A stretch of DNA of 12,456 nt from a virus: the UHGV virus genome UHGV-0079174; one strand, 5' to 3'. The notes beneath the pieces were generated by a model, which saw nothing but the letters and a program-made list of their open reading frames with translations, did not search any database and had not been told where the DNA came from. This document shows positions 1 through 12,456 of this stretch, one piece after another. A program made the position numbers and the translations under genes. Position 1 is the stretch's first letter. Each line of letters begins with the position of its first letter.

Positions 1-187
1 CATGTACCGGAACTTTAGGTTTTTTTCGTTGAGCGTCGCGAATAGCTTCACTGTGTGGACGTGCTGCATGAACCGGGCGGCTGTCTAAGATTAGCAAGGT
101 CTAAATACACCTCCAGTTTCAGATGGTTCCTAAAGGTGATGCTTGTGGTTATGATAGACAGAAAGATAAGACTTCCGAGGGTTAGCT

Positions 188-1021
188 ATGAGTGATGGGT
201 GGTTAGATTCTACTATGCAAGCAATAAACGATAGGATTAAAAGCCCATTATGGGGATATATCATTCTTGCATGGGTATGGTTCAACTGGCCTAACTTAGC
301 AATGCTCTTTATGAGTGATGCGCCTGTTAAGTTTCGAATAGATTATATACTATCTCAGGAATATTTTTACGCTCATTATCTGCTTGCTCCTGTCTTTTTT
401 GGAGGTGTGCTAGCTGTTATTACTCCTTATGCTCAATGGTTACTTTCTCTTGCTCAAAAATGGGCTACAGATAAACACAATGAAAATGTTTATCTTACAA
501 AGGAAAAAGAATACTTGGATTCAATCAGGTTAACGGGGTTAAAGGTTCGGGCTGCCAGAGAAGAAGAGAAAGAAAATGCTAAAATTGATGCTGATATTAA
601 AGCGGAAGTAGAGCGTGGTAAGCGTGAAGAGCTGGTCACAGAAGAGCTACAGACAGAGAAGAAACTGATTCAGAAAGAAATTAATAATTTAAAGCAGTTA
701 GTATCTAAAGAAAAACAAACCATTGAAAATATCGAGATAGAAAAAGAGAGACTACAGGATTTGATTGTTGCCTCACTTGAGGTAATGGATGATTTCTTTA
801 AAGTTGATAATAGCCATTCATTACAGCAATTGAAGAGTAGGGTAGAAGAACTTTTAACAGTTTCTGATATTGAAGCTTCTACCATACGTAACGCGCTACG
901 ACAAAAGAAAGAGCTAACTTCATCACAGACAATGAAAATGTTCGATATGGTAGAGGCTAAAATTAAAAAGGAAAAAGAAAAAGGTAATAATATAGAGTCG
1001 AATGAATTAATTAACCAATAA
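188..1021 (+). CDS. Hypothetical membrane protein: two N-terminal hydrophobic helices followed by a long charged coiled-coil-like C-terminal region
   Basis: 277-aa ORF from the track. ATG at 188 preceded by GAGGG (177-181). Hydrophobic segments WGYIILAWVWFNWPNLAMLF and HYLLAPVFFGGVLAVITPYAQWLLSLA, then an E/K-rich heptad-like sequence. No catalytic motif recognised. Confidence 0.6.
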   Translation: MSDGWLDSTMQAINDRIKSPLWGYIILAWVWFNWPNLAMLFMSDAPVKFRIDYILSQEYFYAHYLLAPVFFGGVLAVITPYAQWLLSLAQKWATDKHNENVYLTKEKEYLDSIRLTGLKVRAAREEEKENAKIDADIKAEVERGKREELVTEELQTEKKLIQKEINNLKQLVSKEKQTIENIEIEKERLQDLIVASLEVMDDFFKVDNSHSLQQLKSRVEELLTVSDIEASTIRNALRQKKELTSSQTMKMFDMVEAKIKKEKEKGNNIESNELINQ

Positions 1022-1061
1022 TGCTATGCCTGTAAATAACAGGACATAAACAGGTTAGTAC

Positions 1062-1309
1062 CTATGCAATTTAACGGTATTTTTCCAAGTATCTATGCAA
1101 TCCTACACAGATTCTATACAGTATCGACATAGCCCCTTTTTATCATAACTTATTGAAATATATAGAGAATCTGTAAATCCTCTTTTCAGGGTAAACTGTA
1201 TCGTGTTAGTCGTTCCTCTCTCGACACTACATACAGTGCTATATACAGGACTATATAACGGTGTCTATGCAGTTGGTCACTATCAATATTCCCTTAAAGT
1301 GACTATCAA
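1062..1309. repeat. Cluster of short direct repeats (iteron-like) in non-coding DNA
   Basis: CTATGCAAT at 1062-1070 and 1093-1101 (31 bp period); CTATGCAG at 1265-1272; GT(C/G)ACTATCAA at 1276-1286 and 1299-1309 (23 bp period). No ORF in the supplied track in this stretch. Confidence 0.4.
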
Positions 1310-1457
1310 GCTACTTAATAGTTTCCTATATGAAAGTTAGGAGGCGATAGTTATAGTTCCTTCGTAGTTCCCCTTAAAAAATCACTTAGAGACATCTTAA
1401 TCTATATGCAGATTTCACGTAGAACACGATTAGTGCGTAAAACAGCTATTATGTTAA

Positions 1458-1486
1458 AAACACACTGTGTTTATATCAGTACTGAT
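1458..1486. promoter_or_regulatory. Two adjacent palindromes, operator-like
   Basis: AAACACA-C-TGTGTTT (1458-1472, 7-bp arms) and a perfect 12-bp palindrome ATCAGTACTGAT (1475-1486), 2 bp apart. Confidence 0.3.
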
Positions 1487-1637
1487 TTATAAGGGTTTTG
1501 TGTATTGGCTGATAAGAGGCTATACAGCACCTTGAGAGCATGTCTTATAAGTCATTGACACATAAGGTCACAGAAGTTTGTAGCTGTTACAGAGAAAACT
1601 GGATAGGACTTCACAGAATTATAAAATGTTACAGCTA

Positions 1638-1665
1638 TTGATAGATGAAATCTTCTTGATAGATG
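1638..1665. repeat. Exact 10-bp direct repeat TTGATAGATG x2
   Basis: Copies at 1638-1647 and 1656-1665, 18 bp period, in non-coding DNA. Confidence 0.4.
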
Positions 1666-1916
1666 CTTTGAAGTGTGGTTAAGGTTTCTTGAGGTGGAGT
1701 TAACAGATGCCATGAAGAAAGTCAATAATTGGTTATAGATATTTTAACTGCTTTTGCAAAGGGGGGAGCTATATCGTGAATCTGGGGCACTTAACAGCCA
1801 TCAATTGAGTGTAGATATTTTTGAAGATTATCGGTGAAGGGGAATGTAGAGGGGTTACTACGATATTTATAAAAATTTTCAGACTCTGAAAAGTTACTGT
1901 ACAGATTTTATACAAA

Positions 1917-1940
1917 CTAAAAAGGACTCCCGAAAGAGTC
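1917..1940 (-). terminator. Candidate intrinsic terminator on the minus strand
   Basis: Stem GGACTC (1923-1928) / GAGTCC (1935-1940), 6-nt loop. On the minus strand the hairpin is followed by TTTTAGTTTGT. No T-tract follows it on the plus strand. Confidence 0.3.
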
Positions 1941-1975
1941 CCTATAAGTCGATTTTTAACGTGGCTACGACAATC

Positions 1976-2029
1976 CACCCATACCGCACCAAACCTTACC
2001 CCACCGAACCGCACCCTACACGACCTTAC
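1976..2029. repeat. C-rich (plus strand) / G-rich (minus strand) imperfect tandem repeat
   Basis: CCGCACC occurs twice and CCTTACC twice within about 55 bp (roughly CACC..ACCGCACC..CCTTACC repeated). Compositionally unlike the flanking AT-rich DNA. Confidence 0.3.
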
Positions 2030-2550
2030 CTCGCCGGACACTGCCATAGAGAGTGTGCTTGGTTGCTTTGGAAGTAAACCTAGTACAGTAAGCCATTATA
2101 CATATCGAGATAGTAACGTCAAGAAACTTTTAACAGGAGGGGTTCCTATGGTCACATATTCCCTCTCTTCCCACTAAGTAAGTCTTAGCAGCACCTAAGC
2201 AACAATTGACTAACAGGTTCGGTAGAGTCTATCTCATAGGTCAACTTCATAAACTCAGAGTTAAGTTACCTTGAAAGATTCTACCAAGAAACTACACAGG
2301 TGTTATTTAGTCTGACTGTGAAGGGATATTTAACGGGAGGAGAGATACGATATAACCCGAAGGGAGAGTATCATCTTAACAATTATCTTAAGAATAAAAC
2401 TGAAAAGTTCTTAACAGATGACTACCTAGAAAGAAGGGAACGATAAGACCAGAGGTAGTGACCTTGTTAAACAGGCTGTTTCAAAGCTCTTAAGAGTCTG
2501 TTAAGTAAGGGCTATGTGAACAATCTTACCATTTTGTCAATGCTTTTGTC

Positions 2551-2596
2551 TTTAGCAAAAAGTGCTAAACTTAACAAAAAGCACTAAATGCTAAAG
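2551..2596. promoter_or_regulatory. Repeat and inverted-repeat cluster just upstream of the methyltransferase gene
   Basis: TTTAGCA (2551-2557) / TGCTAAA (2563-2569) inverted repeat; 15-mers CAAAAAGTGCTAAAC (2556-2570) and CAAAAAGCACTAAAT (2575-2589); AAATGCTAAAG at 2586-2596 recurs at 3716-3726, and a related AAATGCTA lies in the promoter spacer at 4181-4188. Confidence 0.3.
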
Positions 2597-2634
2597 AGAC
2601 GATTAAGAAATATACTAAGAGGGGCGCTTCGCTT

Positions 2635-3303
2635 GTGTCACATCCAATAATCAATGTTGGTCGTTATCATGGTGGTTCTGATGACTGGCGTACACCGTAT
2701 CGTTTATTTCATAATCTGCATCGTGAGTTTAACTTCAGTCTAGATGGCGCTGCAACTGAGCATGACGCATTGTTGCCACGGTTCACCGATGATATTCACA
2801 ATCAATCATGGGTTGGTGAACGGGTCTTCGTTAACCCGCCGTTTAGCATGGCTGAAAAGTTCCTCTTAAAAGCCCCTGAAGCTGATGTGTGTGTATGTCT
2901 GGTTCCGCTCAGGTCAAAGACAACTTACTGGCTTCGGTGTGTATATACAAACCCCTTCCTGCATGAGATTCGAACGTTGCACCGAGCAGTCAAATACCTT
3001 CCACCAGCAGGAAAGAGAGGTGTTGTAGTGCGCTCACCGTTTCCAAGTTGCGTTTTGATATACAGGAACACACCCCGCAAACCGAAAGTTGAAGTTACCC
3101 AGACAATCTATTGTGGTGACACAATGCTTTTACTTGCCGTGGTTAACAGGGGTGGTTTACGTGGAAGACCTCATATGCACAATGCACAGACGCTTGACAG
3201 GTTGATTAAAATGTATGACCAAGGGCAACCCATCAAGAGCATCGCAGAATCGCTAAGAATGCCTCTAAGCACCACTTACAGGATTGTTCAAAGGTTGGGC
3301 TGA
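2635..3303 (+). CDS. Phage Dam-family DNA N6-adenine methyltransferase with C-terminal helix-turn-helix extension
   Basis: 222-aa ORF, GTG start 9 nt after AAGAGGGG. N-terminal DDWRTP, then VFVNPPFS (N/DPPY/F-type catalytic motif) and LVPLRSKTTYW...SPFPS, the pattern of phage Dam-type orphan methyltransferases. The last ~40 aa (GQPIKSIAESLRMPLSTTYRIVQRLG) read as a resolvase/Hin-type HTH. Family assignment is from motif memory, not a search. Confidence 0.7.
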   Translation: MSHPIINVGRYHGGSDDWRTPYRLFHNLHREFNFSLDGAATEHDALLPRFTDDIHNQSWVGERVFVNPPFSMAEKFLLKAPEADVCVCLVPLRSKTTYWLRCVYTNPFLHEIRTLHRAVKYLPPAGKRGVVVRSPFPSCVLIYRNTPRKPKVEVTQTIYCGDTMLLLAVVNRGGLRGRPHMHNAQTLDRLIKMYDQGQPIKSIAESLRMPLSTTYRIVQRLG

Positions 3304-3350
3304 AGTTCTCATATAGAGCACTGATTACGAGAATGTTAAAGATGCGATTT

Positions 3351-3541
3351 CCCCTTTCTGGGGTTATTCGCTTTTTACTGGAAGGGTTATTTTACAGAGG
3401 TTTTTCAAACCCCCTCAATAATAGAAACGAGCAACAAACGAAGAGCGAGAAATAAAAATATTGAGACTGGTGAACGGGGGTCTGTAAAGATTGTTTAAGA
3501 AGTCGGTTAAGAAGGTGGCTCTCCCTGTCTGGGGTTATCGC
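3351..3541. repeat. Direct repeat CCCT..TCTGGGGTTAT(T)CGC x2, about 171 bp apart
   Basis: CCCCTTTCTGGGGTTATTCGC (3351-3371) and CTCCCTGTCTGGGGTTATCGCC (3522-3541), in DNA with no ORF in the supplied track. Confidence 0.35.
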
Positions 3542-3768
3542 CTTGTGTCTTAGTGAGTCTTGAAAGTTCTCTGTGAAGAGTCTTGTCAGTCCTTTATATT
3601 GGCTAATTACAACTCATTGAAAAAATAAGCATTTTTAGAAATTACTGTCAGAGGGGTGAATACTTGATAGATACAGCTTTCCGGTTCTGTCAAGCTATTT
3701 ATTAATGGATAGCACAAAATGCTAAAGATACCCCTATACCATCACGTACAGGGGGTTTTGAAGGGAGT

Positions 3769-4026
3769 TTAACGGGGTTCTGTGTGGTCGTTATCCTTAA
3801 GGTCAAGCGTCCATGTACGACCGAACAGTTTAAAGACAACAAGCACTCTGACGAGGACGTAGCGAAGTAGCAGACCTGCAATCAGCCCAACACCTCCACC
3901 AGCCCATACATCAGGTGACCCCAGCTCAGGAGGGAGATTTACCATTAGTTTTCCTTGTAAGACGCTCTCAATCGCATTCTGACACAAAAAAGTACCTGAC
4001 CTTATATGTTGACCTGAAGAGGCCAT
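3769..4026 (-). CDS. Hypothetical small protein with one hydrophobic segment; coding status uncertain
   Basis: 85-aa minus-strand ORF with hydrophobic stretch GGGVGLIAGLLLRYVLVRVLVVF. A candidate minus-strand promoter lies upstream (4126-4155). Weak ribosome-binding site. Confidence 0.3.
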   Translation of the reverse strand: MASSGQHIRSGTFLCQNAIESVLQGKLMVNLPPELGSPDVWAGGGVGLIAGLLLRYVLVRVLVVFKLFGRTWTLDLKDNDHTEPR

Positions 4027-4125
4027 TTAACTCGTTACAGAGCGATTGAAGAGGTCTGTGTGCAATGCAATAACCATGCGGCCATTCTCATAGCCACGCC
4101 TCATATTTTACTCTCCCATAAACCC

Positions 4126-4155
4126 ATTATACCACAGATGTTAATAAAATGTTAA
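4126..4155 (-). promoter_or_regulatory. Candidate sigma70-type promoter on the minus strand, divergent from the plus-strand promoter
   Basis: On the minus strand: -35 TTAACA (plus 4150-4155), 18-bp spacer, -10 TATAAT (plus 4126-4131). Confidence 0.3.
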
Positions 4156-4161
4156 AAATGC

Positions 4162-4190
4162 TTGACATTAGTCTTTGAAAATGCTAGTAT
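4162..4190 (+). promoter_or_regulatory. Sigma70-type promoter (first of two matching promoters)
   Basis: -35 TTGACA (4162-4167), 17-bp spacer, -10 TAGTAT (4185-4190), followed by TGTATATATAGG (4191-4202), which is identical to the 12-mer after the second promoter. First gene starts 51 nt downstream. Confidence 0.55.
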
Positions 4191-4240
4191 TGTATATATA
4201 GGTTAACACAGAATTAACAATTATAAGGACTAGCTTATGA

Positions 4241-4795
4241 ATGAGAGACGCAGAATTTAGAGCGATGCTTCAGGCATCGAGACAACGTAACAGATACAAC
4301 TCCTACAGCTACACAGACACCCCCACCAGCTACGAATTACCCAAGCTCACCCAAAAAGAACGCAAAGGCATTGACGAAGTAATTCGGGCAATTACACCGA
4401 GGGAACGTTATATGCCAACCAGAAAGAGCACGAAGAACAGCATCAAAAATTATTTGAATAACTTCGACAGCTATGAGCAACTACCAAGTAAGCTTGATGA
4501 TATTTTCATTGGATTCTGTAGAAGTGAAGGCCACCCGAAATACAACAAAAAACTATTTTATCTTCTAAAGAATCTTGACGAAATTAACGCATCCAGCGTG
4601 ACAAATCGTCTTCAGCGTCAAGCAACCAGACTTAGCTACGAATTACCAACCGATGCCTATTGTGCATTGCTTGCTGTAATGTGTGCAAAGCTAATTGGTA
4701 TTGTTGAACATCATATTGCCGTTGGTAATATTGAGCCAATGGAAAACGAGCAACCAGACTTTGAGTTTGACCCGTATATTTTGGAGGAATTTTAA
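4241..4795 (+). CDS. Hypothetical protein with acidic C-terminal tail
   Basis: 184-aa ORF, ATG at 4241 preceded by TAAGGA. C-terminal EPMENEQPDFEFDPYILEEF. No recognisable domain. Confidence 0.55.
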   Translation: MRDAEFRAMLQASRQRNRYNSYSYTDTPTSYELPKLTQKERKGIDEVIRAITPRERYMPTRKSTKNSIKNYLNNFDSYEQLPSKLDDIFIGFCRSEGHPKYNKKLFYLLKNLDEINASSVTNRLQRQATRLSYELPTDAYCALLAVMCAKLIGIVEHHIAVGNIEPMENEQPDFEFDPYILEEF

Positions 4796-4796
4796 A

Positions 4797-5078
4797 ATGG
4801 GAAATAAACACACATTAACCAGAGTTACAAAGACAGCCTTTGAAGAGCTTAACCGAATCAAAAACATTACAGGTCTGCCACACTCAGCAGTGATGAAGCT
4901 TGCAATTAACCGTGATATTAACGAACAAGATTTGCTTAATAGTCGCTTAGAGGCAGCAAGACACCATATCAGGATTAAGCAAGATGACCTTGATAGTCTG
5001 AAATATTTAAATGCTTTTGGACTGGATTTAGCAAGGTTACTAAGCATCAAAATTCACAAATTAGCGATGGAGGTTTAA
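4797..5078 (+). CDS. Small protein, possibly a ribbon-helix-helix DNA-binding protein
   Basis: ATG at 4797 sits 9 nt after GGAGG (4783-4787) and 1 nt after the upstream stop; the track's 4695 start would overlap the upstream gene by 100 nt. N-terminus KHTLTRVTKTAFEELNRIKNITGLPHSAVMKLAI resembles a strand-helix-helix pattern. Fold call is tentative. Confidence 0.5.
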   Translation: MGNKHTLTRVTKTAFEELNRIKNITGLPHSAVMKLAINRDINEQDLLNSRLEAARHHIRIKQDDLDSLKYLNAFGLDLARLLSIKIHKLAMEV

Positions 5079-5464
5079 TGTATGACTTTTATAAACATCG
5101 TGACCATTTGGTAAGATTTGACGGTAAAGTCTGGAAAGACGTAACACAAACCAATAAACCCAAGTTTACCCACCAGCAATTAGCCTCAAGATTTGATATC
5201 TGGACTGAAGCACAAAAAGATAATGGTGATTTCGAGTTTATCAGAGGTTTTGATTATTCTTACGAAGACGACCTTAAAGACGCCATTAAATTAATTGAGA
5301 ACTTCAACTCTATTAAAAATGGTGACAAGCACAAAGCCAACGGTAACAGATACGATAAAGATTTAATCATTGATGCAATCACCAAAGGACAATCACAAAG
5401 TTATATTTCTGAGAAATACGGCTTATCACGTAGTCAATACTACAAGATTAAAGCGTCTGTGTAA
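5078..5464 (+). CDS. Hypothetical protein with C-terminal helix-turn-helix
   Basis: 128-aa ORF. Its ATG overlaps the upstream stop (TAATG at 5076-5080), indicating translational coupling. C-terminal DAITKGQSQSYISEKYGLSRSQYYKIK is the same resolvase-type HTH flavour as the methyltransferase C-terminus. Confidence 0.6.
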   Translation: MYDFYKHRDHLVRFDGKVWKDVTQTNKPKFTHQQLASRFDIWTEAQKDNGDFEFIRGFDYSYEDDLKDAIKLIENFNSIKNGDKHKANGNRYDKDLIIDAITKGQSQSYISEKYGLSRSQYYKIKASV

Positions 5465-5476
5465 GTCTGTGAGAAT

Positions 5477-5523
5477 GAGTGAGACTCAAAGATGAGCTAC
5501 CCTATTACTAAGGTGTCTCACTC
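5477..5523. promoter_or_regulatory. 9-bp perfect inverted repeat GAGTGAGAC / GTCTCACTC separated by 29 bp
   Basis: Arms at 5477-5485 and 5515-5523, between two genes. No T-tract follows, so it is more likely a binding site or RNA structure than a simple terminator. Confidence 0.3.
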
Positions 5524-5602
5524 CCTCTGTAACCCGCATGGTTACTGGCCTCAGGATGGCTATTTTGGCAGATTTAAGATGTGTTTTTAGAGGATTTTAA
5601 AA

Positions 5603-5926
5603 ATGAATAATTTCCCGCTACAGATTTTCGTTGATAGCGACACCGCTCTGATGATTCAGGCTTTCAGTGATTCCGGTGTATCAATTGACTTTGATAAATT
5701 ACTAAAGCTAATGGCTGATAACTCAGAAACAATTGAAGATTTTATTCAGGAAATTGAAACTGGTGACCCACGTTTTATGTTTCCCGTTACCGACTCAAAC
5801 ATGAAGCGCCTTATTATTGAGGAAACTAACCGATACAGCGTTAGCCCTGAAAAATATCTCAAGGCGGCTATAGTAATTTTGTACGCTGACAATGTTTTGG
5901 TTACGGATTCGAAGGTGGTGCATTAA
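5603..5926 (+). CDS. Hypothetical acidic protein
   Basis: 107-aa ORF, ATG at 5603 preceded by AGAGGA (5589-5594). Confidence 0.55.
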   Translation: MNNFPLQIFVDSDTALMIQAFSDSGVSIDFDKLLKLMADNSETIEDFIQEIETGDPRFMFPVTDSNMKRLIIEETNRYSVSPEKYLKAAIVILYADNVLVTDSKVVH

Positions 5927-5991
5927 TGGAATTGGTGATTATCTGTTTTGTATTGATTGGTATGATTGCAGGTGCATCTATTAAAGTATAA
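5926..5991 (+). CDS. Candidate 21-aa hydrophobic micro-protein MELVIICFVLIGMIAGASIKV
   Basis: ATG overlaps the upstream stop (TAATG at 5924-5928). Almost entirely hydrophobic, one predicted transmembrane helix. Below the ORF-track size threshold. Confidence 0.3.
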   Translation: MELVIICFVLIGMIAGASIKV

Positions 5992-6015
5992 ATGTTACCA
6001 ATCTGTTAAAAGCTG

Positions 6016-6044
6016 TTGACAAATAACCTTGAGCATGACATAAT
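6016..6044 (+). promoter_or_regulatory. Sigma70-type promoter (second of two matching promoters)
   Basis: -35 TTGACA (6016-6021), 17-bp spacer, -10 CATAAT (6039-6044), followed by TGTATATATAGG (6045-6056). Confidence 0.55.
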
Positions 6045-6146
6045 TGTATATATAGGGAGAGCAATTCTCCTTGAATTAAAATATTAATCATTCTACATCG
6101 ATGATAACTATATTCTGAGTTGGAAAGGTGCAATGCTTTTCGCTAC

Positions 6147-6175
6147 ATGACCTCTTATATAACTTGAGAGGTCAT
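6147..6175 (+). promoter_or_regulatory. Hairpin in the long leader (9-bp stem ATGACCTCT / AGAGGTCAT, 11-nt loop)
   Basis: Perfect 9-bp inverted repeat about 100 nt downstream of the predicted start site. No T-tract follows. Confidence 0.35.
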
Positions 6176-6234
6176 CTCGAAAAGTCTTTGTTCATTCATT
6201 GAATCCTTTAGATGTTCTTTAATTTCTTCACCTT

Positions 6235-6270
6235 AGCCCTTTATAGCGTTTTAGTTATCTAGGGCTTTTT
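6235..6270 (+). terminator. Terminator-like hairpin inside the leader (possible attenuator)
   Basis: Stem AGCCCT (6235-6240) / AGGGCT (6261-6266), 20-nt loop, then TTTT (6267-6270). Lies about 190-220 nt downstream of the promoter and about 110 nt before the first gene. The long loop weakens the call. Confidence 0.3.
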
Positions 6271-6378
6271 CAGCTTTTAAAAAGCATACATGGCAAACGC
6301 TTTTAAGTCTCTTCTAAGTTCGTAGGCTGTCAGGTGTGCTTTTTAAAAACTGAATATTACTTAGAAGAGGAAAATGAA

Positions 6379-7086
6379 ATGGAAAATCTATATATTAGCG
6401 GTAGAAAGGTTGATAGCTTCGGTGACTGGTCGCCACAGACTGAACATCCAGCTATCACTATTCAGCGTAAAGAACACGATGAAAGAATTAAGCTTGAGCA
6501 ATCGTTAAAGATGTCACCAAAGGTAATTTCCTTTGTGTCTCCTGAGCCTCAAGAAATGCCAGATATCTGCAAAAGTGAAGCACTATTTAATCTTGAGCGT
6601 GAATATTACCCACAGTTAAAAGCACAGCGTATTAAACTTGATGACGCTTACAGCAAAGTTACCCTGATGCAATCAGCTATTGAGCCGTCAGAATTTGAGA
6701 TTCAGGATGAATTGTCACAGAAACCATTTGTCTATTACAAATATGAAGACAATGATGGTTTTGGTACTTTTCCTGAGAATATCCCAGACGTGATTAATAA
6801 TCTTTCTGACGGATATCGAATTGTGAAGATGGTTAAGGCATCAAGAGGTGCTGGTCAGTTTATTTACATGACTAATAAGAGCGATGAAGAACTCGCTGAA
6901 CTTGCTAGACAGAACATCTTGGCATCACGTAACAAGCAGCTTGATAGTGCTAAGTTGTATCTCTCAAGAGAGCTTCAGGCTATGAAAGAGCTTGTTAGTG
7001 AATATGAGTCGCAGAAGAAGGTTGCTATGCAGGCTGATATTGAGCAGCTTACGAAGATTTCTAGCAAATATGCAAAAGCTATTTGA
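6379..7086 (+). CDS. Hypothetical protein with C-terminal coiled-coil-like region
   Basis: In-frame ATG at 6379 preceded by GAGGAAAA (6367-6374); the track's GTG at 6334 has no ribosome-binding site. 235 aa from 6379. No recognisable domain. Confidence 0.55.
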   Translation: MENLYISGRKVDSFGDWSPQTEHPAITIQRKEHDERIKLEQSLKMSPKVISFVSPEPQEMPDICKSEALFNLEREYYPQLKAQRIKLDDAYSKVTLMQSAIEPSEFEIQDELSQKPFVYYKYEDNDGFGTFPENIPDVINNLSDGYRIVKMVKASRGAGQFIYMTNKSDEELAELARQNILASRNKQLDSAKLYLSRELQAMKELVSEYESQKKVAMQADIEQLTKISSKYAKAI

Positions 7087-7094
7087 GGTGATTA

Positions 7095-7403
7095 ATGAGT
7101 GATTTAACAGAACGCGATAAAAGAATTAAAGGGGTGATGGAACCTTTTGAAGATAGGTTCAATGAAATTAAAACGACTCTTGGTGATATTCAGGAGGTCA
7201 CTGAATATCTTATTGGTCGTATGGACGAAAAGCCTCTTGCCGAACTAAAGTTTGAGGGTCGAGATGATTTAACCTTCCTTATTAGAGACCTCAAGCGAGA
7301 TGTAGGACGGCTTGAATCTATCTTTGATAAAGCTGGTCTCTCAATACGTTACGAAATTGTAAAGAATGAACGCGGTGTAAAGTGCATTCACTTCTTGGAG
7401 TGA
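7095..7403 (+). CDS. Hypothetical small acidic protein
   Basis: 102-aa ORF. Extended Shine-Dalgarno GAGGTGAT (7085-7092) before ATG 7095. N-terminus MSDLTER. Confidence 0.55.
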   Translation: MSDLTERDKRIKGVMEPFEDRFNEIKTTLGDIQEVTEYLIGRMDEKPLAELKFEGRDDLTFLIRDLKRDVGRLESIFDKAGLSIRYEIVKNERGVKCIHFLE

Positions 7404-7425
7404 AAATTGAATTATGAGGTGATGA

Positions 7426-7632
7426 ATGATTGATTTAACAGAACGCTATGAACTCATCAGGGCAATTAGCGAACGATTGAAAGAACAACCCAACAAACCA
7501 AAACGAATCAAATCATCCACCTCTAAGCAAAATAACAGAATCAGAAGAATCGCTAAATGGTGTCTTGATAAATTACCAAGTGATTGTCAGATTGTCGGTG
7601 AAGATGGCAATTATTATCTTGTCAGACATTAA
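7426..7632 (+). CDS. Hypothetical small basic protein
   Basis: 68-aa ORF. GAGGTGAT (7416-7423) before ATG 7426. N-terminus MIDLTER. Its first ~37 bp are near-identical to the start region of the gene at 7095. Confidence 0.5.
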   Translation: MIDLTERYELIRAISERLKEQPNKPKRIKSSTSKQNNRIRRIAKWCLDKLPSDCQIVGEDGNYYLVRH

Positions 7633-7658
7633 AAAGAATTGGTTGGGTAAAAATCAAC

Positions 7659-7699
7659 GGGAGAGATTATCGAGTGACATCGGTAGCTCTCCCTTTTTT
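7659..7699 (+). terminator. Candidate intrinsic terminator
   Basis: Stem GGGAGAG (7659-7665) / CTCTCCC (7687-7693) followed by TTTTTT (7694-7699). The 21-nt loop is long for a canonical terminator. Confidence 0.4.
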
Positions 7700-7814
7700 G
7701 TATATGTGCTACGTGATGATTCGGATAAGAATTATCCTCATGAAATCTGTAAAGCTAATACCCACACTGAAAAATAGAATTTACGTACAACACGCTTAAA
7801 GAGGTGAAACATGA

Positions 7815-9863
7815 ATGAGCAAATTCACAGTTGATAGTTTTATCGTTGAACTAGGCTTCAATGAGAACGTTATTAAAGGTCTGCAAAAAGTTGAAAAGGC
7901 AGCTTTGCAGTCAGCACAAAGAATTGAACGTAATTTGAATAGAGCGTTTAAGGTCGATACCAAGCAACTTGACAGTAATTTAACGGCTTCTTTAAAGTCA
8001 ATGGAAGGGAAGATTAATAAGACCTTTGACCGTCTGGAAGCTAGAGCAAAAAATACTAAAGCTTTCCGTTTCACAAGTCAGGTTAATGACGCTATTAATC
8101 CTCCAAAACAACCAAGACAGCCACGAATTAGCGGAAACAGAGCAATCACAGCAGCTTATTCAGCTAATATGAGCAAGCTGAAAGGTCTTAACCCAATTGT
8201 CGAGAAATACATTAAGAGTCAGTTTTACGCATTAAGTAGTAAAGCTGGTCAGATGGATAACACCAAGTTTAATGAAGCCCTCGCTAAACTAAATTCAAGT
8301 GTACGAGAAGCAATTGCTAAAGCCAGAGGTCATACATCCACCAGCATTAACGGTGACAGAGCAGCTAGCAGTCTTGATAGTCTGTCTTCAGCAGCAGTTA
8401 AAACAGCAGGTGCATTTATCAGCTTTCAGGCTGTACTATCCGCTTATCAGCGAGTAATGGAAGTTGGCCTTCAACGTGCATCATCGGAAAGAAGTATTGA
8501 TTTCGTATTCGGTGACCAAAGTACACAGGTTAAAAAGTTCATTCAAGATTTAACTCAAATTACTGGTATGGACACAACCGAAACACAAGCACAATTTGCT
8601 TCATTTGGTGCATCTGCAACGACTACGATGGGTCTTGAAGGGTCAGAAGAGTTATTTAAAAACCTTACAGGTTATGCTCGTTTAATGGGTCGTTCAGATG
8701 AGCAGATTCAAAGAGCATTAACCGCAGTGTCACAGATGGCCTCTAAGGGTCAGGTGATGGCTGAGGAGTTGAAGGGGCAATTATCTGAAGCTTTGCCGGG
8801 TGCTACTCAGGCATTTGCAAAGGCTTTAGGTCTGACTGAAAAACAACTTTTCGATAAGATGAAAAATGGTGATGTTAAAGCCTCTGATGCACTTCCTAAG
8901 TTTGCTAAAGAACTTGGTGCACAGATTAATTCAAGAGGTGGCTGGAAAGCTATTCAGGACTCTACGCAGACAATGTTAGGGAACTTAAAGAATACCTGGA
9001 ATAACTCACTAACGGATATTTTCAGAGGTTCTGAAAATGGTCTGCAAGATTTTACACGAAGCCTAACAACGCTTTTAAACAGTTTAGGTGGAAGTGGTAA
9101 AAGTCTTGGTGAATCTCTTGGTAGCTTGATGACTGATATGTCGCATGGTGTGGATAGCCTGACCGATATCAGTTACAGAGTGAGAGCTTTCTTTGATGAG
9201 GTGACATTGGCTTACCGTGGTTTAACCGATGAGCAAAAGAAAGTAGTTGATGCTTTAGGTTCTGGCTTGATTAATAGTTTAAAAGTCTTGGCTGGTGTTA
9301 TTGCTGTAAATAAAGTTGTTGGTGTAACCAGAAGTATTTACGGGCTTATGACTGCTATCACAAGATTAGGTCAGGTCGCTGATACAACAGCGGATAACGT
9401 GAATAGAAAGAACGGGAAACCATCAAGGTTTAATCTTGGGAATATGCTATTAGCTGGTAGTGCTATCTATGCAGGTTATGAGAGATTAGCTTCTACGCCT
9501 GAACGAATGGAAGCACAAGCTAAATTACCAGAGCTGGCTAAAGAGTCTGGACTTAAGCCAGTATTTACTATGGACGATGTGAAAGGTTGGTTTAATAGTG
9601 CTGCTATGAATCTTGCTAACTTCCAGCATCCAGAATTAATCACCATGAGACAAGATGCGGCATTAACGAATACGGATATCCAAAGCCTGAGAGATGAAAT
9701 TAGTGCTTTGAGCAAACGTATTCAGGAGCCTGTGAAAGTTTCACTTGGTGGTGAAGTTGCCATTAAACCAGATGAAACCAGCTTTATGACCTTTAGCAGT
9801 AATATCTACGACCAATACGCAGAAGCTACGCTATTAAGTTCATCATTCCCAGAAGATGATTGA
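7815..9863 (+). CDS. Tape-measure-like protein (phage tail length tape-measure domain)
   Basis: 682-aa ORF, AAGAGGTGA before ATG 7815. Central segment KGQVMAEELKGQLSEALPGATQAFAKALGLTEKQLFDKMKNGDVKASDALPKFAKELGAQ matches the conserved tape-measure domain pattern from memory. A/S/G/L-rich helical composition with internal hydrophobic segments. Confidence 0.6.
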   Translation: MSKFTVDSFIVELGFNENVIKGLQKVEKAALQSAQRIERNLNRAFKVDTKQLDSNLTASLKSMEGKINKTFDRLEARAKNTKAFRFTSQVNDAINPPKQPRQPRISGNRAITAAYSANMSKLKGLNPIVEKYIKSQFYALSSKAGQMDNTKFNEALAKLNSSVREAIAKARGHTSTSINGDRAASSLDSLSSAAVKTAGAFISFQAVLSAYQRVMEVGLQRASSERSIDFVFGDQSTQVKKFIQDLTQITGMDTTETQAQFASFGASATTTMGLEGSEELFKNLTGYARLMGRSDEQIQRALTAVSQMASKGQVMAEELKGQLSEALPGATQAFAKALGLTEKQLFDKMKNGDVKASDALPKFAKELGAQINSRGGWKAIQDSTQTMLGNLKNTWNNSLTDIFRGSENGLQDFTRSLTTLLNSLGGSGKSLGESLGSLMTDMSHGVDSLTDISYRVRAFFDEVTLAYRGLTDEQKKVVDALGSGLINSLKVLAGVIAVNKVVGVTRSIYGLMTAITRLGQVADTTADNVNRKNGKPSRFNLGNMLLAGSAIYAGYERLASTPERMEAQAKLPELAKESGLKPVFTMDDVKGWFNSAAMNLANFQHPELITMRQDAALTNTDIQSLRDEISALSKRIQEPVKVSLGGEVAIKPDETSFMTFSSNIYDQYAEATLLSSSFPEDD

Positions 9864-9875
9864 TAATAGTCGAAT

Positions 9876-9930
9876 GCTACGTGAAATCTCCTGAACAGAT
9901 ATACCCACCAAAAATTATTTTTCACGTAGC
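9876..9930. promoter_or_regulatory. 11-bp perfect inverted repeat GCTACGTGAAA / TTTCACGTAGC separated by 33 bp
   Basis: Arms at 9876-9886 and 9920-9930, between the tape-measure-like gene and the next gene. TTTCACGTAG also occurs at 1413-1422. Confidence 0.35.
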
Positions 9931-10020
9931 TCACGCTTAACAGATAAAACACTTAAATATCAAAGGCTTGGTTAAAAATGATTAAAATACACTAAGTCTT
10001 TGAAATCAAAGGAGAATATA

Positions 10021-10794
10021 ATGATTTACACTAATCAACTTCGTTACAGTGGCAAAGATGGTATCTATTTCCACTTAAGAGATAATGTAGATGCCTTCTT
10101 AACCTTATCAGCAACTGAAAACATGGAATTTGACAGCCCTATGCAGGTGACTACACAGAACATGCAATCAGGGCAAACCGTAACAGATAACGTGCAAAGA
10201 GCACCCAGAACAATCACTATTAGTGGTGTCGTTGTAGTTGGCTATGAAGGAAGCTTATTATTAACTCGTCAGGGTCAATTAGTAGAAAATTTCATCGACA
10301 CTCTTGAAAGCTGGCGTGACCAGAAGCAGATTATTTCTGTCATCTGTCGAGACGGTATCAAAATTGATGATTCCATTATTACGAGTTTTAAAGCCTCTAA
10401 AGATGTTGGAATTTCAAATGGTCTAAGAATCCAGCTAACTTTTCAGGAAATTAACTTCAAAGCCATTGTGGGTCAGACTGATATCTCTGCTGCAACTGGA
10501 AAGACCGCTACCACAAATGATGGTGGTGCTACTTCTAAGAAAAATACGGGTAACACTACGACAAGTCTAGGTAATGGTATGTTGATGTGTCAGGAGCTAT
10601 ATAATCGCTCTACGAGTGAACTCACTAATGAGCAACTTCAAGCCCGTATCAATTGTGGTAGAAGTGTCAAAGTTGAGAACGGAAAAAGCACCTTCTCAGA
10701 TGCCGCTAATGAGCAAGCTTCGAAAGTGCTTAGTAATGCTGGTACAGGTAGTACTTTGAAGAAATTTTCTGTAAATCCTAACAAGCGATACTGA
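10021..10794 (+). CDS. Hypothetical protein, possibly tail-associated by position
   Basis: ATG at 10021 sits 6 nt after AAGGAG (10009-10014); the track's TTG at 10000 is less likely. 257 aa from 10021. C-terminal third is T/G/N/S-rich low complexity. Function is inferred only from lying immediately after the tape-measure-like gene. Confidence 0.5.
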
Positions 10795-10808
10795 CGATAG
10801 AATCTCAA

Positions 10809-12332
10809 CTATATGATAACCTCATCAACATCTATTAAACCCCTCTCAGTGACTTCAGAAAGCGACTGTATAGCCTCTGTAACGTCCTCTGAGGGGTTTT
10901 CTGTTATTGATAGGTCAATTACCTTACCGTTGTGAAAACTTACTTTACAGCGACGTTTAGCAGTATTTAAAACGACCTCTTTAACAGCACTTTTGATTAT
11001 CAGTTGTGCTTCAATCCTTCCCGCCTTTGTAGTCAAGTCACAATCAGACAAACAACCAACATCAATAGATTTAAGGCGTTGTGTCTCCTTCTCGATATCC
11101 GCATCAACCTGTGATAGCTCACCTTTTAACTGCTTTAGTTTGATGGTAATAGCTGACAAATCTTCAATTTCAAGTGATAGCTGTACCAGCTTTTCAATAT
11201 TGCTTGAGATGTGTTCACGGTGTAGCTTCAGCGTATCTATGGTATTCGTCATATCGCTATCAAATCGGTCAAGACGAGATAGCAGGGTAAGTAATGTACC
11301 ATCAGTTTGCTTACGTGAAAGTCCTTTAGCACTACAACGGTTTTCATTACGAAGGGGACAACGATAAATCCCGCTTCTTGTATCGCTAAAGCCTGTGATA
11401 ATCAAAGCATGACCACATTCAGAACAACGGATAACACCTTTGAAAAGATTCACAGCCATTGGCTTATCTGAAGCAGGTTTTCTACCGTAACGAGAATATG
11501 ATAGTTGTTGAACTTTGTAGAATGTTGTTTCATCTATAATTGCAGGATAATAACCAGCTATCTCCTCACAGCCTTTAGGTGTGAAGTAACCAATTACAGA
11601 GCGATTTTTCAGAAGGTCTTGTACTGAGGTTTGACCAAATGAACCCGCTTTATATTGGTTAAGCGTCTGGTGACCTTCATCATTAAGAGTCCTGACAATC
11701 TCCCAGATAGACTTACCCTCTAACCGTAGCTGAAAGCACCTCTTCACAGTCTCCACTTTCTCAGGGATTACAGAGAAGCTTTTACGGTCATCATTAAGCT
11801 TAAGCCATGCAGGACAACGTTTAGAAATCTTGATACCTTCAGAGATGAGTTCTTTTTTACGGTTCCATGCAGCTTGTATACGCTCAGACTTCCTCAAACT
11901 CTCCTCATGCGACCGCTGCATTATCAGAATGCTTTTAATCAGAGCTAACGGGTCTTTAAGAGATTCTCGTGTGTAATGTTCACCATCGGACAAGGTGACC
12001 ACATCTACACCAGAGCGAAGAATGTTTCTGAGTAGCTCACTTGCTTGGTCTACATCTTGACGTGACAGACGGTCAAGAGATTCTATCAAGAGCGTATCAC
12101 CAGCTTTAACAAGCCCTTTCTCGATAGCGGTTAAAAAGTCACCTAAGCCACCTTTCAAGTGCTTACCAGTGAACCCACTCACCCCCAAATCACGGAAGGA
12201 TAAATCTTGGTCAAGGTAGTACTCAGGATGAGCCTTAAGCCAGTCATTAACCATCTTAGACTGTCTGCGTAGTGAGTCGCCTTTGGCTTGTCGCTCAGAA
12301 CTGAATCTGATGTAGCTGATTACACGTTTCAT
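10809..12332 (-). CDS. Large serine recombinase (probable integrase of the element)
   Basis: 507-aa ORF. N-terminal resolvase-type catalytic domain with YIRFSSERQ (nucleophile-serine motif, compare YIRVSTEEQ), a Cys-rich zinc-ribbon-like segment CSECGH...YRCPLRNENRC, and a C-terminal coiled-coil region. This is the domain order of phage-type large serine integrases. Confidence 0.85.
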   Translation of the reverse strand: MKRVISYIRFSSERQAKGDSLRRQSKMVNDWLKAHPEYYLDQDLSFRDLGVSGFTGKHLKGGLGDFLTAIEKGLVKAGDTLLIESLDRLSRQDVDQASELLRNILRSGVDVVTLSDGEHYTRESLKDPLALIKSILIMQRSHEESLRKSERIQAAWNRKKELISEGIKISKRCPAWLKLNDDRKSFSVIPEKVETVKRCFQLRLEGKSIWEIVRTLNDEGHQTLNQYKAGSFGQTSVQDLLKNRSVIGYFTPKGCEEIAGYYPAIIDETTFYKVQQLSYSRYGRKPASDKPMAVNLFKGVIRCSECGHALIITGFSDTRSGIYRCPLRNENRCSAKGLSRKQTDGTLLTLLSRLDRFDSDMTNTIDTLKLHREHISSNIEKLVQLSLEIEDLSAITIKLKQLKGELSQVDADIEKETQRLKSIDVGCLSDCDLTTKAGRIEAQLIIKSAVKEVVLNTAKRRCKVSFHNGKVIDLSITENPSEDVTEAIQSLSEVTERGLIDVDEVII

Positions 12333-12361
12333 TCTTTACCACCATAAAAACTAATAGCGCG

Positions 12362-12390
12362 ATTGTATCGCTTTAGGTGGTGTATTTAAA
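12362..12390 (-). promoter_or_regulatory. Candidate promoter for the recombinase gene
   Basis: On the minus strand: -35 TTTAAA (plus 12385-12390), 17-bp spacer, -10 TACAAT (plus 12362-12367). The -10 overlaps the palindrome GCGAT-TGT-ATCGC (12359-12371). Confidence 0.25.
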
Positions 12391-12456
12391 CGTGTCTGAT
12401 GAAAATCACCCGATTAACGCCGCGCTGATGTAAACCGCGATTAAGCGTTTGTTCCT

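What the first reader, a model, noticed from the sequence alone, without database searches (positions are those of the whole stretch)
7085..7452. Duplicated translation-initiation region shared by two adjacent small genes
The 37 bp at 7085-7121 and 7416-7452 match at 33 positions (GAGGTGATnAATGAnTGATTTAACAGAACGC...), giving both proteins an M-x-DLTER N-terminus, while the rest of the two genes is dissimilar. The tape-measure-like gene start shares GAGGTGA and AATGAG. Candidate explanations are a conserved translational operator, a recombination module boundary, or local gene conversion.
Basis: seen in the sequence. Interest (0 to 1): 0.5.

Follow-up and report, generated by a model that had tools for sequence, protein, structure and literature searches.

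The report
Shared gene-start patch marking recombination joints
Two neighbouring small genes in a 12-kb E. coli mobile island begin with the same 38-base ribosome-binding-site-plus-first-codons patch because that patch is the conserved joint at which gene modules, including an optional 102-codon gene, are added, lost and swapped; this is a real but fairly ordinary footprint of mosaic evolution, not a regulatory switch.

Summary
The repeat is real: 7084-7121 and 7415-7452 match at 34/38 positions (33/37 as reported), against zero expected by chance. It covers an 8-nt Shine-Dalgarno (GAGGTGAT), the ATG and codons 2-9 of a 102-aa gene (A) and a 68-aa gene (B).

The window is a ~12.3-kb island inserted in yecE. 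It carries a serine recombinase and Felixounavirus-like tape-measure and Dit genes, and related islands occur in ~430-470 of 5,426 complete E. coli genomes.

- B is the resident gene of the slot. A is optional (132 genomes) and always sits between the upstream 235-aa gene (U) and B.
- A and B are not full-length paralogs. Only residues 1-23 align.
- Other versions of A lack the shared codons or carry different ones. One version resembles a second B allele.
- Each repeat copy stays 78-97% identical while its flanks fall to 40-66%. Homology blocks between islands start or stop at the repeat edges.
- There is no RNA structure, Rfam hit, antisense partner or extra copy, and the coding part is replaced in many relatives.

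Best reading: a shared translation-initiation cassette and N-terminal head that was copied or converted between adjacent genes and serves as a recombination joint. A translational operator is unsupported. Interest is modest.

The parts
7084..7121 (+). Repeat copy 1. It holds the TGA stop of the upstream 235-aa gene fused into an 8-nt Shine-Dalgarno (GAGGTGAT), a spacer, the ATG (7095) and codons 2-9 of gene A (MSDLTERDK).
   Evidence: It stays 94-97% identical among DLTER-type A loci even where the left flank is 40% and the right flank 66% identical.
7415..7452 (+). Repeat copy 2. It holds the Shine-Dalgarno GAGGTGAT, a spacer, the ATG (7426) and codons 2-9 of gene B (MIDLTERYE).
   Evidence: Homology with single-gene relatives L010, L023, L049 and L050 begins at 7415. 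It stays 78-97% identical while the B body falls to 46-57%.
7095..7403 (+). Gene A, 102 aa, an optional accessory gene of the slot. It is predicted to form three helices and a beta-hairpin. Its function is unknown.
   Evidence: (132 of 5,426 genomes). No Pfam, PHROG, NCBIfam, PADLOC, phage or PDB-fold match.
7426..7632 (+). Gene B, 68 aa, the resident gene of the slot, present in all related islands inspected. It has an N-terminal helix, a basic linker and a small beta-alpha-beta domain. Its function is unknown.
   Evidence: A profile search of 1.84 billion representative proteins finds only 14 hits; the eight whose sequences were read are B-family proteins or fragments.
6379..7086 (+). Upstream 235-aa gene (U), annotated 'transposase' by PGAP but with no family match here. 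Its TGA stop is part of copy 1's Shine-Dalgarno.
   Evidence: No Pfam, PHROG or NCBIfam hit. It occurs as at least three unalignable types in relatives.
7659..7699 (+). Intrinsic terminator (14-pair GC-rich hairpin plus U6) that closes the U-A-B unit before the tape-measure gene. It is also the right edge of the A+B module shared with L048.
   Evidence: dG -24.4 kcal/mol, z -4.0, 0 of 200 shuffles as stable. (the L048 block ends at 7703).
7801..7817 (+). Tape-measure gene start: GAGGTGA, 7 nt, ATG. It shares only the Shine-Dalgarno with the repeat.
   Evidence: PF20155 TMP_3.
6016..6044 (+). Best sigma-70-like promoter upstream of U (TTGACA-17-CATAAT with TG). It is the presumed promoter of the U-A-B unit. 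This is a consensus match only.
   Evidence: 11/12 match. No promoter-like site lies directly before A or B.

Best explanation
The 38-nt repeat is the common 'head' of the genes that occupy one variable slot of a mosaic mobile island. The slot lies between the 235-aa gene U and the tape-measure gene.

The head has two layers.

1. A generic translation-initiation cassette, TGAGGTGAT-n-AATG, stands in front of whichever gene comes first in the slot in nearly every relative. GAGGTGAT is 8 nt complementary to the 3' end of 16S rRNA. This is established knowledge of the anti-Shine-Dalgarno sequence.
2. About 24 nt of coding sequence (codons 2-9, xDLTER..) belong natively to the resident gene B. They were copied onto the optional upstream gene A, or are shared with it, by a partial 5'-end duplication or short-tract gene conversion anchored on the common cassette.

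Shown:
- A is optional, and in every locus inspected that has it, B (or a frameshifted remnant of B) follows.
- A and B share only their N-terminal ~9-21 codons.
- A exists with the DLTER head, with a second head that resembles a second B allele, with no head (27 nt shorter), and with an unrelated head.
- Homology blocks between islands start and stop at the repeat edges.

Inferred:
- Because the patch is conserved, most simply as a strong unstructured ribosome-binding site, it supplies the only stretch of homology between otherwise diverged neighbours. Homologous or short-homology recombination there would then reassort U, A and B, and add or delete A.
- The repeat works in cis as two ordinary ribosome-binding sites. 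A's start is probably coupled to termination of U, because the stop lies inside the Shine-Dalgarno 8 nt before the ATG. In evolution the repeat works as a module joint. It is not a dedicated regulatory element.
For: (1) The island and its family. The window is a ~12.3-kb island splitting yecE, with a large serine recombinase. Relatives occur in 471 or 428 of 5,426 complete E. coli genomes. They also occur in Citrobacter, Salmonella, E. albertii and a further unnamed Escherichia species.

(2) A is optional. Its body is present in 132 genomes. Sixteen single-gene loci have only U-B-TMP. Every A-bearing locus inspected has the order U-A-B; in one of them, L060, the B reading frame is broken by a 1-nt deletion. 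A synthetic sequence with A deleted (7087-7403 removed) aligns in one piece with natural single-gene islands at 92% identity.

(3) A and B are not paralogs beyond the head.

(4) Alternative heads exist on A.
- Citrobacter L007 A lacks exactly the 27 nt that encode SDLTERDKR.
- L052 A' is 41% identical to A in its core (E = 9e-12) and shares only TGAGGTGATGAATGAGT before diverging.
- In codons 3-7, L055 A (DSQRH) matches the B 'DLQQR' allele at 12/15 but the DLTER allele at only 7/15.

(5) Mosaic joints fall at the repeat.
- L048 matches window 7075-7703 at 93% while its flanks are unalignable.
- Homology with L010, L023, L049 and L050 starts at 7415.
- L003 aligns up to 7131 and resumes at 7416.
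- Between L002 and L006, identity is 97% in copy 1 and drops to 66% immediately after it.

(6) The cassette TGAGGTGAT.AATG heads every slot gene, with or without a 15-24-nt spacer after the upstream stop.

(7) There is a published precedent of the same kind. Mycobacteriophage Island3 gene 68 shares ~50 bp and 18 residues with its neighbour gene 67. This was interpreted as recombination between short conserved boundary sequences (PMC3029335).
Against: - No recombination event was observed directly.
- No pair of nearly identical islands differing only by A was found. The closest single-gene relative is 92% identical, so the direction (gain or loss of A; gain or loss of the 27-nt head) cannot be polarised.
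- Within-island concordance, as expected for ongoing gene conversion, is absent. L057 has DLTER on A but DLQQR on B, and L055 has the reverse.
- The L055 head is a single lineage, and 12/15 is modest evidence.
- Conservation of the B start (0.83-0.89 mean pairwise identity) is only moderately above the rest of B (0.6-0.8). The 'conserved islet' is therefore partly a property of a few discrete allele classes.
- The ~30 loci are not a random or phylogenetically independent sample.
- Selection on the shared N-terminal peptide could contribute and was not excluded.
Confidence: 0.62

Rival explanations
1. The shared M-x-DLTER.. head is kept by selection on the protein. Both small proteins would use the same N-terminal helix start to dock onto one partner, for example the tape-measure protein, U, or a helper-phage tail protein. 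This would resemble the way tail chaperones G and GT share an N-terminal domain.
For: - Both are predicted to begin with a helix: A residues 2-42 and B residues 4-19.
- Weak similarity continues to residue ~21-23.
- The head is present in most members of both families.
- Both genes lie directly upstream of a tape-measure gene, the position of the chaperones in Ounavirinae phages.
Against: - Both families have members with other heads or no head. For A these are a 93-aa Citrobacter form seen on at least 24 contigs (listed in 39 blocks of the collection), DSQRH, and the SPIFY form. For B these are DLQQR, FAERLE, YEDRLE and SRYDL.
- Codons 3-7 are identical at all 15 nucleotides, including synonymous sites, between A and B. 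Peptide selection alone does not explain this.
- There is no homology to any chaperone family.
- pLDDT for A's first ten residues is only 66.
Confidence: 0.2
2. The repeat is a cis-regulatory site, either a translational operator on the mRNA or a DNA operator. One protein or small RNA would bind it to control both genes together.
For: - The identical 16-mer overlaps two start regions 331 nt apart.
- The start region is the best-conserved part of B.
- The island encodes helix-turn-helix proteins of unknown role.
Against: - There is no stable or shared RNA structure. The z-scores are -0.16 and +1.0, and -0.09 and +1.17 for the longer contexts.
- There is no Rfam family.
- No complementary (antisense) copy and no third copy exists in the island.
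- The tape-measure start shares only the Shine-Dalgarno.
- The coding half is replaced in many functional-looking relatives, and synonymous variants occur: ACA/ACT, TAT/TAC, CAA/CAG.
- Exact 16-mer hits in 2.9 million viral contigs are chance matches, apart from three islands of this family.
Confidence: 0.07
3. A and B are whole-gene tandem duplicates that diverged beyond recognition except at the start.
For: - They are adjacent, on the same strand, and begin alike.
- Pairwise BLASTP gives E = 8e-4 over 71 residues.
Against: - hhalign of the two family profiles aligns only residues 1-23, with probability 20%.
- Nucleotide identity falls to background after ~74 nt.
- The predicted folds differ: helix-helix-helix-hairpin against helix-linker-beta-alpha-beta.
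- The B profile retrieves no recognisable A protein among 1.84 billion representatives.
- Uniform divergence would not leave 34/38 identity next to unalignable sequence.
Confidence: 0.05

Closest known systems
Short conserved boundary (linker) sequences at mosaic junctions of phage genomes. The worked example is mycobacteriophage Island3 genes 67/68 (PMC3029335). The lambdoid 'boundary sequence' idea is cited there.
   Same: - A few tens of bp are conserved at gene borders between otherwise unrelated or diverged modules.
- An extra small ORFan gene shares only a terminal ~18 residues (~50 bp) with its neighbour.
- The structure is explicable as insertion or deletion by recombination between the short repeats.
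   Different: - Here the shared piece is the 5' end (ribosome-binding site plus N-terminus), not the 3' end.
- It lies in a small chromosomal island, not a phage.
- The patch doubles as a strong translation-initiation region, which offers a reason for its conservation.
Morons and accessory-gene insertions between adjacent genes of phage operons (own knowledge: Juhala et al. 2000; Hendrix et al.).
   Same: - Gene A is present in about a quarter of related elements.
- It sits exactly between two genes that are adjacent in the other elements.
- It is an ORFan of unknown function.
   Different: Classic morons bring their own promoter and terminator. A has neither. Instead it carries a copy of its neighbour's ribosome-binding site and first codons, and it abuts the upstream stop codon.
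PeSLs (promoter-early stem-loops) flanking shuffled genes in hyperplastic regions of T4-like phages (own knowledge: Arbiol, Comeau & Krisch 2010; not checked here).
   Same: Repeated expression signals at the heads of small accessory genes are thought to act as homology patches for gene shuffling.
   Different: PeSLs hold a promoter and a stem-loop. This repeat holds a Shine-Dalgarno, a start codon and N-terminal codons, has no structure, and occurs only twice.
Tail assembly chaperone pair G/GT (E/E' in myoviruses), which share an N-terminus through a programmed -1 frameshift. It is annotated in Ounavirinae phage Moogle just upstream of the tape-measure gene.
   Same: Two small proteins with a common N-terminus are encoded immediately upstream of a tape-measure gene.
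   Different: - Here there are two separate, non-overlapping ORFs that share only 8-21 residues.
- No frameshift configuration is present.
- There is no sequence or fold similarity to chaperone families.
- A terminator lies between them and the tape-measure gene.

Membership tests
Conserved boundary sequence at a mosaic recombination joint | A short (tens of bp) sequence conserved at a gene border | tested here: met
   The 38-nt patch lies at the 5' border of A and of B. The cassette TGAGGTGAT.AATG is present at every slot-gene start in ~30 loci.
Conserved boundary sequence at a mosaic recombination joint | Homology blocks between related genomes begin or end at the sequence, and the flanks are reassorted | tested here: met
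   Block edges fall at 7075, 7131, 7415/7416 and 7703. Copy 1 is 94-97% identical while the flanks are 40% and 66%. All combinations of U types, A presence and B types are seen.
Conserved boundary sequence at a mosaic recombination joint | Recombination actually occurs at the sequence | not testable with these tools
   This needs PCR or sequencing of deletion and exchange products, or a formal breakpoint test on hundreds of islands. No near-identical pair differing only by A was found.
Tandem full-length paralogs | Homology along most of both proteins | tested here: not met
   hhalign aligns residues 1-23 only. Nucleotide identity is at background beyond ~74 nt. The predicted secondary structures differ.
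Ongoing gene conversion (concerted evolution) between the two copies | Copies within one element are more alike than copies across elements | tested here: inconclusive
   Codons 3-7 are 15/15 identical between A and B in the window, L002, L006 and L048. They are discordant in L057, L058, L060 and L055. The A head types (TER, QRH) mirror the B head types (TER, QQR), which suggests at least two past transfers.
Translational operator or regulatory RNA element | A conserved RNA structure or a known family | tested here: not met
   Folding z-scores are -0.16 and +1.0. Rfam gives nothing at E <= 1.
Translational operator or regulatory RNA element | The sequence is conserved wherever the regulated genes occur | tested here: not met
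   The coding half is replaced by four or more other heads in B and three in A.
Translational operator or regulatory RNA element | A factor binds the site | not testable with these tools
   This needs toeprinting, gel-shift or reporter assays.
Tail assembly chaperone G/GT pair | The shared N-terminal domain is produced by a programmed frameshift within overlapping frames | tested here: not met
   A (7095-7403) and B (7426-7632) are separate ORFs with their own ribosome-binding sites. The only overlapping ORF (7565-7777) runs through the terminator, and the spacer length there is not conserved.
Tail assembly chaperone G/GT pair | Homology to chaperone families | tested here: not met
   No Pfam, PHROG or NCBIfam hit. 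No tblastn hit in 50,697 phage genomes. No significant PDB fold match for A.
Moron (autonomous accessory insertion) | Present or absent between genes that are adjacent in relatives | tested here: met
Moron (autonomous accessory insertion) | Own promoter and terminator | tested here: not met
   No promoter-like site lies before A and no terminator after A. The only strong terminator follows B.

The most novel reading that the evidence does not exclude
The shared head may be functional and not a scar. It could be an N-terminal 'address' helix, with its matched high-efficiency ribosome-binding site, that targets interchangeable small effector proteins (A, A', and the B variants) to one partner in the tail-assembly pathway of a helper or target Felixounavirus. 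The slot would then be a cassette system for swapping effectors behind a constant docking tag, inside a so-far undescribed family of E. coli islands that carry their own tape-measure and Dit-like genes. Such islands could be satellites of a virulent myovirus or a tail-assembly decoy defence.
Probability: 0.1. Interest if true: 0.65.

Novelty: new member of a known kind. Interest (0 to 1): 0.3.

Why it matters
The finding gives a clean, sequence-level example of how small mobile elements add, drop and reshuffle ORFan genes. A strong ribosome-binding site and a few N-terminal codons are reused as the head of each gene in a slot, and they provide the only homology at which neighbouring modules can recombine. 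That helps annotation, because the 102-aa gene is an optional cassette and not a paralog of its neighbour. It also helps in reading mosaic joints in other elements.

The larger value lies in the context the check uncovered. This is a widespread island family, present in ~8% of complete E. coli genomes, that is apparently undescribed. The islands integrate in yecE with a serine recombinase. They carry a tape-measure gene distantly related to Felixounavirus tape-measure genes (28% aa) and a Dit-like gene that is 94% identical in DNA to the phage gene. This suggests parasitism of, or defence against, virulent FelixO1-like phages.

Tried and rejected
- **RNA structure of both start regions.** They fold no better than shuffles, so this was rejected.
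- **Rfam scan of the whole window at E <= 1.** Nothing found.
- **Further or antisense copies of the 16-mer or 31-mer in the window.** None.
- **Scan of 2.9 million viral contigs for the 16-mer.** There were 38 hits. Of these, 35 are unrelated chance contexts and 3 are islands of this family, all single-gene. No helper-phage copy was found.
- **Phage homologues of the region.** blastn 'distant' of 6300-7820 against phages gave no match. tblastn of A and B against 50,697 phage genomes gave none at E <= 1.
- **Protein family searches for U, A and B.** Pfam, PHROGs, NCBIfam and PADLOC gave no hits.
- **Fold search for A.** The AlphaFold model of A against PDB gave only generic helical hairpins (best E = 0.28). 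The B model was too weak (pTM 0.29) to search.
- **Profile search with the B family.** The 1.84 billion representatives yielded only 14 hits; the eight read are B proteins or fragments.
- **Frameshift (G/GT-like) reading of 7426-7632 with 7565-7777.** Rejected. There is no slippery site, the ORF runs through the terminator, and the spacer length is not conserved.
- **The junction type as a marker of A's presence.** Rejected. Both types (TGA fused to the Shine-Dalgarno, or a 15-24-nt spacer) occur in single-gene islands that carry the same B allele (L062-64 against L065).
- **A near-identical island pair differing only by A.** None found. The best is 92%.
- **Literature searches for this island family.** Satellite, Felixounavirus, yecE and serine recombinase terms found nothing describing it.
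- **The TMP-Dit intergenic element against phages.** Only chance hits.
Full report
**1. The observation**

The sequence and the repeat finder (family D2) show that 7084-7121 and 7415-7452 are direct repeats, 331 nt apart, matching at 34/38. They share an exact 16-mer, TGATTTAACAGAACGC.

With up to three mismatches allowed, the 31-nt consensus occurs only at these two places. None is expected in 200 dinucleotide-preserving shuffles. The 16-mer has no further or reverse-complement copy in the window.

Each copy spans GAGGTGAT, a spacer, an ATG and eight further codons. The ORFs are 7095-7403 (102 aa, MSDLTERDK..., here 'A') and 7426-7632 (68 aa, MIDLTERYE..., here 'B'). Both are annotated CDS in RefSeq genomes that contain the identical island.

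GAGGTGAT is complementary to eight bases of the 3' end of 16S rRNA. This is established knowledge, not tested here. The first part of the repeat is therefore an unusually long Shine-Dalgarno.

The tape-measure gene start (7801-7817) shares only that Shine-Dalgarno and the ATG context.

**2. Where the window comes from**

The window is 100% identical to a segment of several E. coli chromosomes. In strain FDAARGOS_1252 it is a ~12.3-kb insert that splits yecE (DUF72). A large serine recombinase gene (10809-12332, minus strand) lies at one end.

The island encodes the following:
- a Dam-like methyltransferase;
- several ORFans;
- a 235-aa protein, U (6379-7086), labelled 'transposase' by PGAP but with no family match here;
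- A and B;
- a tape-measure protein (PF20155) whose best phage relatives are Felixounavirus/Ounavirinae tape measures, at 28% identity over the full length;
- a Dit-like protein whose DNA is 94% identical to the Felixounavirus gene that follows the tape-measure gene.

In the Ounavirinae phage Moogle the order is sheath, tube, frameshifted chaperone, tape measure, then a 268-aa hypothetical protein at the position where the Dit-like gene sits in Felixounavirus genomes such as ECOH1. A and B therefore occupy the chaperone position. They have no similarity to chaperones or to any phage protein.

I found no paper describing this island family.

**3. The family and the slot**

Related islands are present in 471 or 428 of 5,426 complete E. 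coli genomes. They also occur in Citrobacter, Salmonella, E. albertii and a further unnamed Escherichia species. I read about 30 loci.

All have the order U - [A] - B - tape measure - Dit-like - recombinase.

- B, in several allelic forms, is present in all but one locus; in L060 only a frameshifted copy remains.
- The A body is present in only 132 genomes.
- In every A-bearing locus A lies between U and B. These loci are the window, L002, L006, L007, L048, L055/56, L057, L058 and L060. L052 carries a 138-aa variant A'.
- Sixteen loci have B alone.
- A synthetic sequence with 7087-7403 removed aligns in a single piece with natural single-gene islands at 92% identity.

**4. Are A and B paralogs?**

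The evidence says they are not, beyond the head.
- BLASTP gives 23% identity over 71 residues, with E = 8e-4 for the one comparison. The signal is carried by the first residues.
- Profiles of the two families align only over residues 1-23, with probability 20%.
- At the DNA level the 36 nt after the repeat match at 16/36 against a background of 9.8 +/- 2.8. Everything further is at background.
- The AlphaFold models differ. A is three helices plus a beta-hairpin (pLDDT 84). B is an N-terminal helix, a basic linker and a small beta-alpha-beta unit (pLDDT 73).
- A B-family profile run against 1.84 billion representative proteins returns only 14 hits; the eight whose sequences were read are B proteins or fragments, and none of the others looks like an A protein.

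The two genes therefore share a 5' module of at most ~21 codons. The first nine codons are nearly identical and the rest of the genes is unrelated.

**5. The junctions**

In all A-bearing loci the U stop codon is fused into A's Shine-Dalgarno (..TGAggtga[at][ta]aATG), with no spacer. B is preceded by a 20-24-nt spacer plus the same Shine-Dalgarno.

Single-gene islands show both arrangements in front of the same B allele. L062-64 have no spacer. L065 has a 15-nt spacer bounded by two TGAs.

The cassette TGAGGTGAT.AATG is thus the generic head of whichever gene comes first in the slot.

**6. The coding half of the repeat is not intrinsic to A**

- Citrobacter islands carry a 93-aa A that lacks exactly the 27 nt encoding SDLTERDKR (ATG ATT AAA TGG...).
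- A' of L052 is 41% identical to A in its core (E = 9e-12). It shares only TGAGGTGATGAATGAGT and then diverges.
- L055 A begins MNDSQRHDK. Its codons 3-7 match the B 'DLQQR' allele at 12/15 but the DLTER allele at 7/15.
- By contrast, all DLTER-type A genes match DLTER-type B genes at 15/15 in codons 3-7, synonymous sites included. This holds even though the A bodies have diverged to 54% amino-acid identity.
- Codons 8-9 are always gene-specific: GAT A/GAA in A and TAY GAR in B.

These patterns fit one or more short transfers of B's head onto A, anchored on the common ribosome-binding site. A partial 5' duplication followed by local exchanges would also fit.

Ongoing homogenisation within each island is not seen. 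L057, L058 and L060 combine a DLTER A with a DLQQR B, and L055 combines them the other way round.

**7. Mosaic joints**

Pairwise comparison of the window with 13 relatives places block edges at the repeat.
- L048 matches 7075-7703 at 93% while its U gene and tape-measure 5' flank are unalignable or much more diverged.
- Homology with L010, L023, L049 and L050 begins at 7415.
- L003 aligns up to 7131 and resumes at 7416.

Segment-wise identities show each copy as a conserved islet.
- Window vs L048: U 3' end 40%, copy 1 97%, A 95-98%.
- L002 vs L006: copy 1 97%, then 66% immediately after.
- Window vs L055, L057 and L060: copy 2 81-94%, B body 46-57%.

All combinations of U type, A presence and head, and B head and body occur. 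This requires crossovers in or next to these short patches.

Across 26 distinct B starts, the mean pairwise identity is highest at 7423-7442 (0.83-0.89). The rest of the gene is at 0.6-0.8. The patch is conserved, but not extraordinarily so.

**8. The regulatory reading**

- Both start regions fold no better than shuffled sequence (z -0.16 and +1.0; longer contexts -0.09 and +1.17). This is what is expected of open initiation regions, not of an operator hairpin.
- Rfam finds nothing.
- No promoter-like site lies directly before A or B. The best one lies before U (6016-6044).
- A strong intrinsic terminator follows B (7659-7699, dG -24.4, z -4.0).
- U-A-B therefore looks like one unit. A is probably translationally coupled to U, because the stop lies inside the Shine-Dalgarno 8 nt before the ATG. 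This is an inference.
- The coding half of the repeat is dispensable in many relatives. A dedicated operator is therefore unsupported, although binding cannot be tested here.

**9. Conclusion**

The repeat is a real, homologous duplication of a translation-initiation cassette plus the first codons of the resident gene. It is shared with an optional neighbouring gene, and it coincides with the joints at which modules of this mosaic island family are exchanged.

The closest described case is mycobacteriophage Island3 genes 67/68. [quoted passage not shown]

What remains open:
- the direction of the events;
- whether the shared N-terminal residues have a common function;
- what A, B and the island itself do.

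The finding itself is a new example of a known kind and is of modest interest. The island family is the more intriguing object.

Noticed in passing
window ~95-12404 (whole island); L001 8095-20404: The window is a complete ~12.3-kb island inserted in yecE (DUF72). It has a large serine recombinase, a Dam-like methylase, ORFans, and its own tape-measure and Dit-like genes, but no capsid, sheath or tube genes. Relatives occur in ~8% of complete E. coli genomes and in Citrobacter, Salmonella and E. albertii. No paper describing the family was found. It may be a satellite of, or a tail-assembly decoy against, FelixO1-like virulent phages.
   Followed up: partly
window 10045-10593 versus 7815-9863: The Dit-like gene is 92-95% identical in DNA to the Felixounavirus gene that follows the tape-measure gene. 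The island's tape-measure protein is only ~28% identical in protein to the phage one. This points to a recent capture or exchange of one phage baseplate gene.
   Followed up: partly
window 9865-9944 and 7741-7803; L004 1906-1971, L010, L013, L023, L049-L051: Two intergenic cassettes swap places between islands. The element between the tape-measure and Dit-like genes in the window (9875-9940) is 97% identical to the element upstream of the tape-measure gene in five relatives. The window's pre-tape-measure element (7751-7803) matches the TMP-Dit spacer of four relatives. These may be interchangeable late promoters or operators. No phage match was found.
   Followed up: partly
window 9870-9880 / 9920-9930 and 1413-1422: An 11-bp perfect inverted repeat, GCTACGTGAAA ... 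TTTCACGTAGC, lies inside the TMP-Dit spacer. The same TTTCACGTAG motif occurs near 1413. It looks like an operator for an island or phage regulator.
   Followed up: no
window 7659-7699: A strong intrinsic terminator (dG -24.4 kcal/mol, z -4.0) separates the U-A-B unit from the tape-measure gene. Expression of the tape-measure and Dit-like genes probably needs a separate promoter, possibly helper-dependent, or antitermination.
   Followed up: partly
L058 2437-2540 (Salmonella) and L060 2832-2845: Two relatives show decay of the slot genes. In the Salmonella island a 34-nt tandem duplication frameshifts A. In a metagenomic island a 1-nt deletion in codon 4 frameshifts B.
   Followed up: no
L061 2814-3533: In one relative the tape-measure gene is replaced or truncated to a 239-aa ORF between B and the Dit-like gene.
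   Followed up: no
window 6379-7086: PGAP labels the 235-aa protein U 'transposase' in many genomes. It has no Pfam, PHROG or NCBIfam match. It occurs as at least three unalignable N-terminal or whole-gene types, mostly with a conserved ..KYAKA[IL] tail or an alternative ..FSKAV tail. The annotation looks unfounded.
   Followed up: partly
window 7422-7433: In copy 2 only, an out-of-frame ATG (7422) opens a 3-codon mini-ORF (ATG AAT GAT TGA) that overlaps the B start. Copy 1 has ATT at that position. Its significance is unknown.
   Followed up: no
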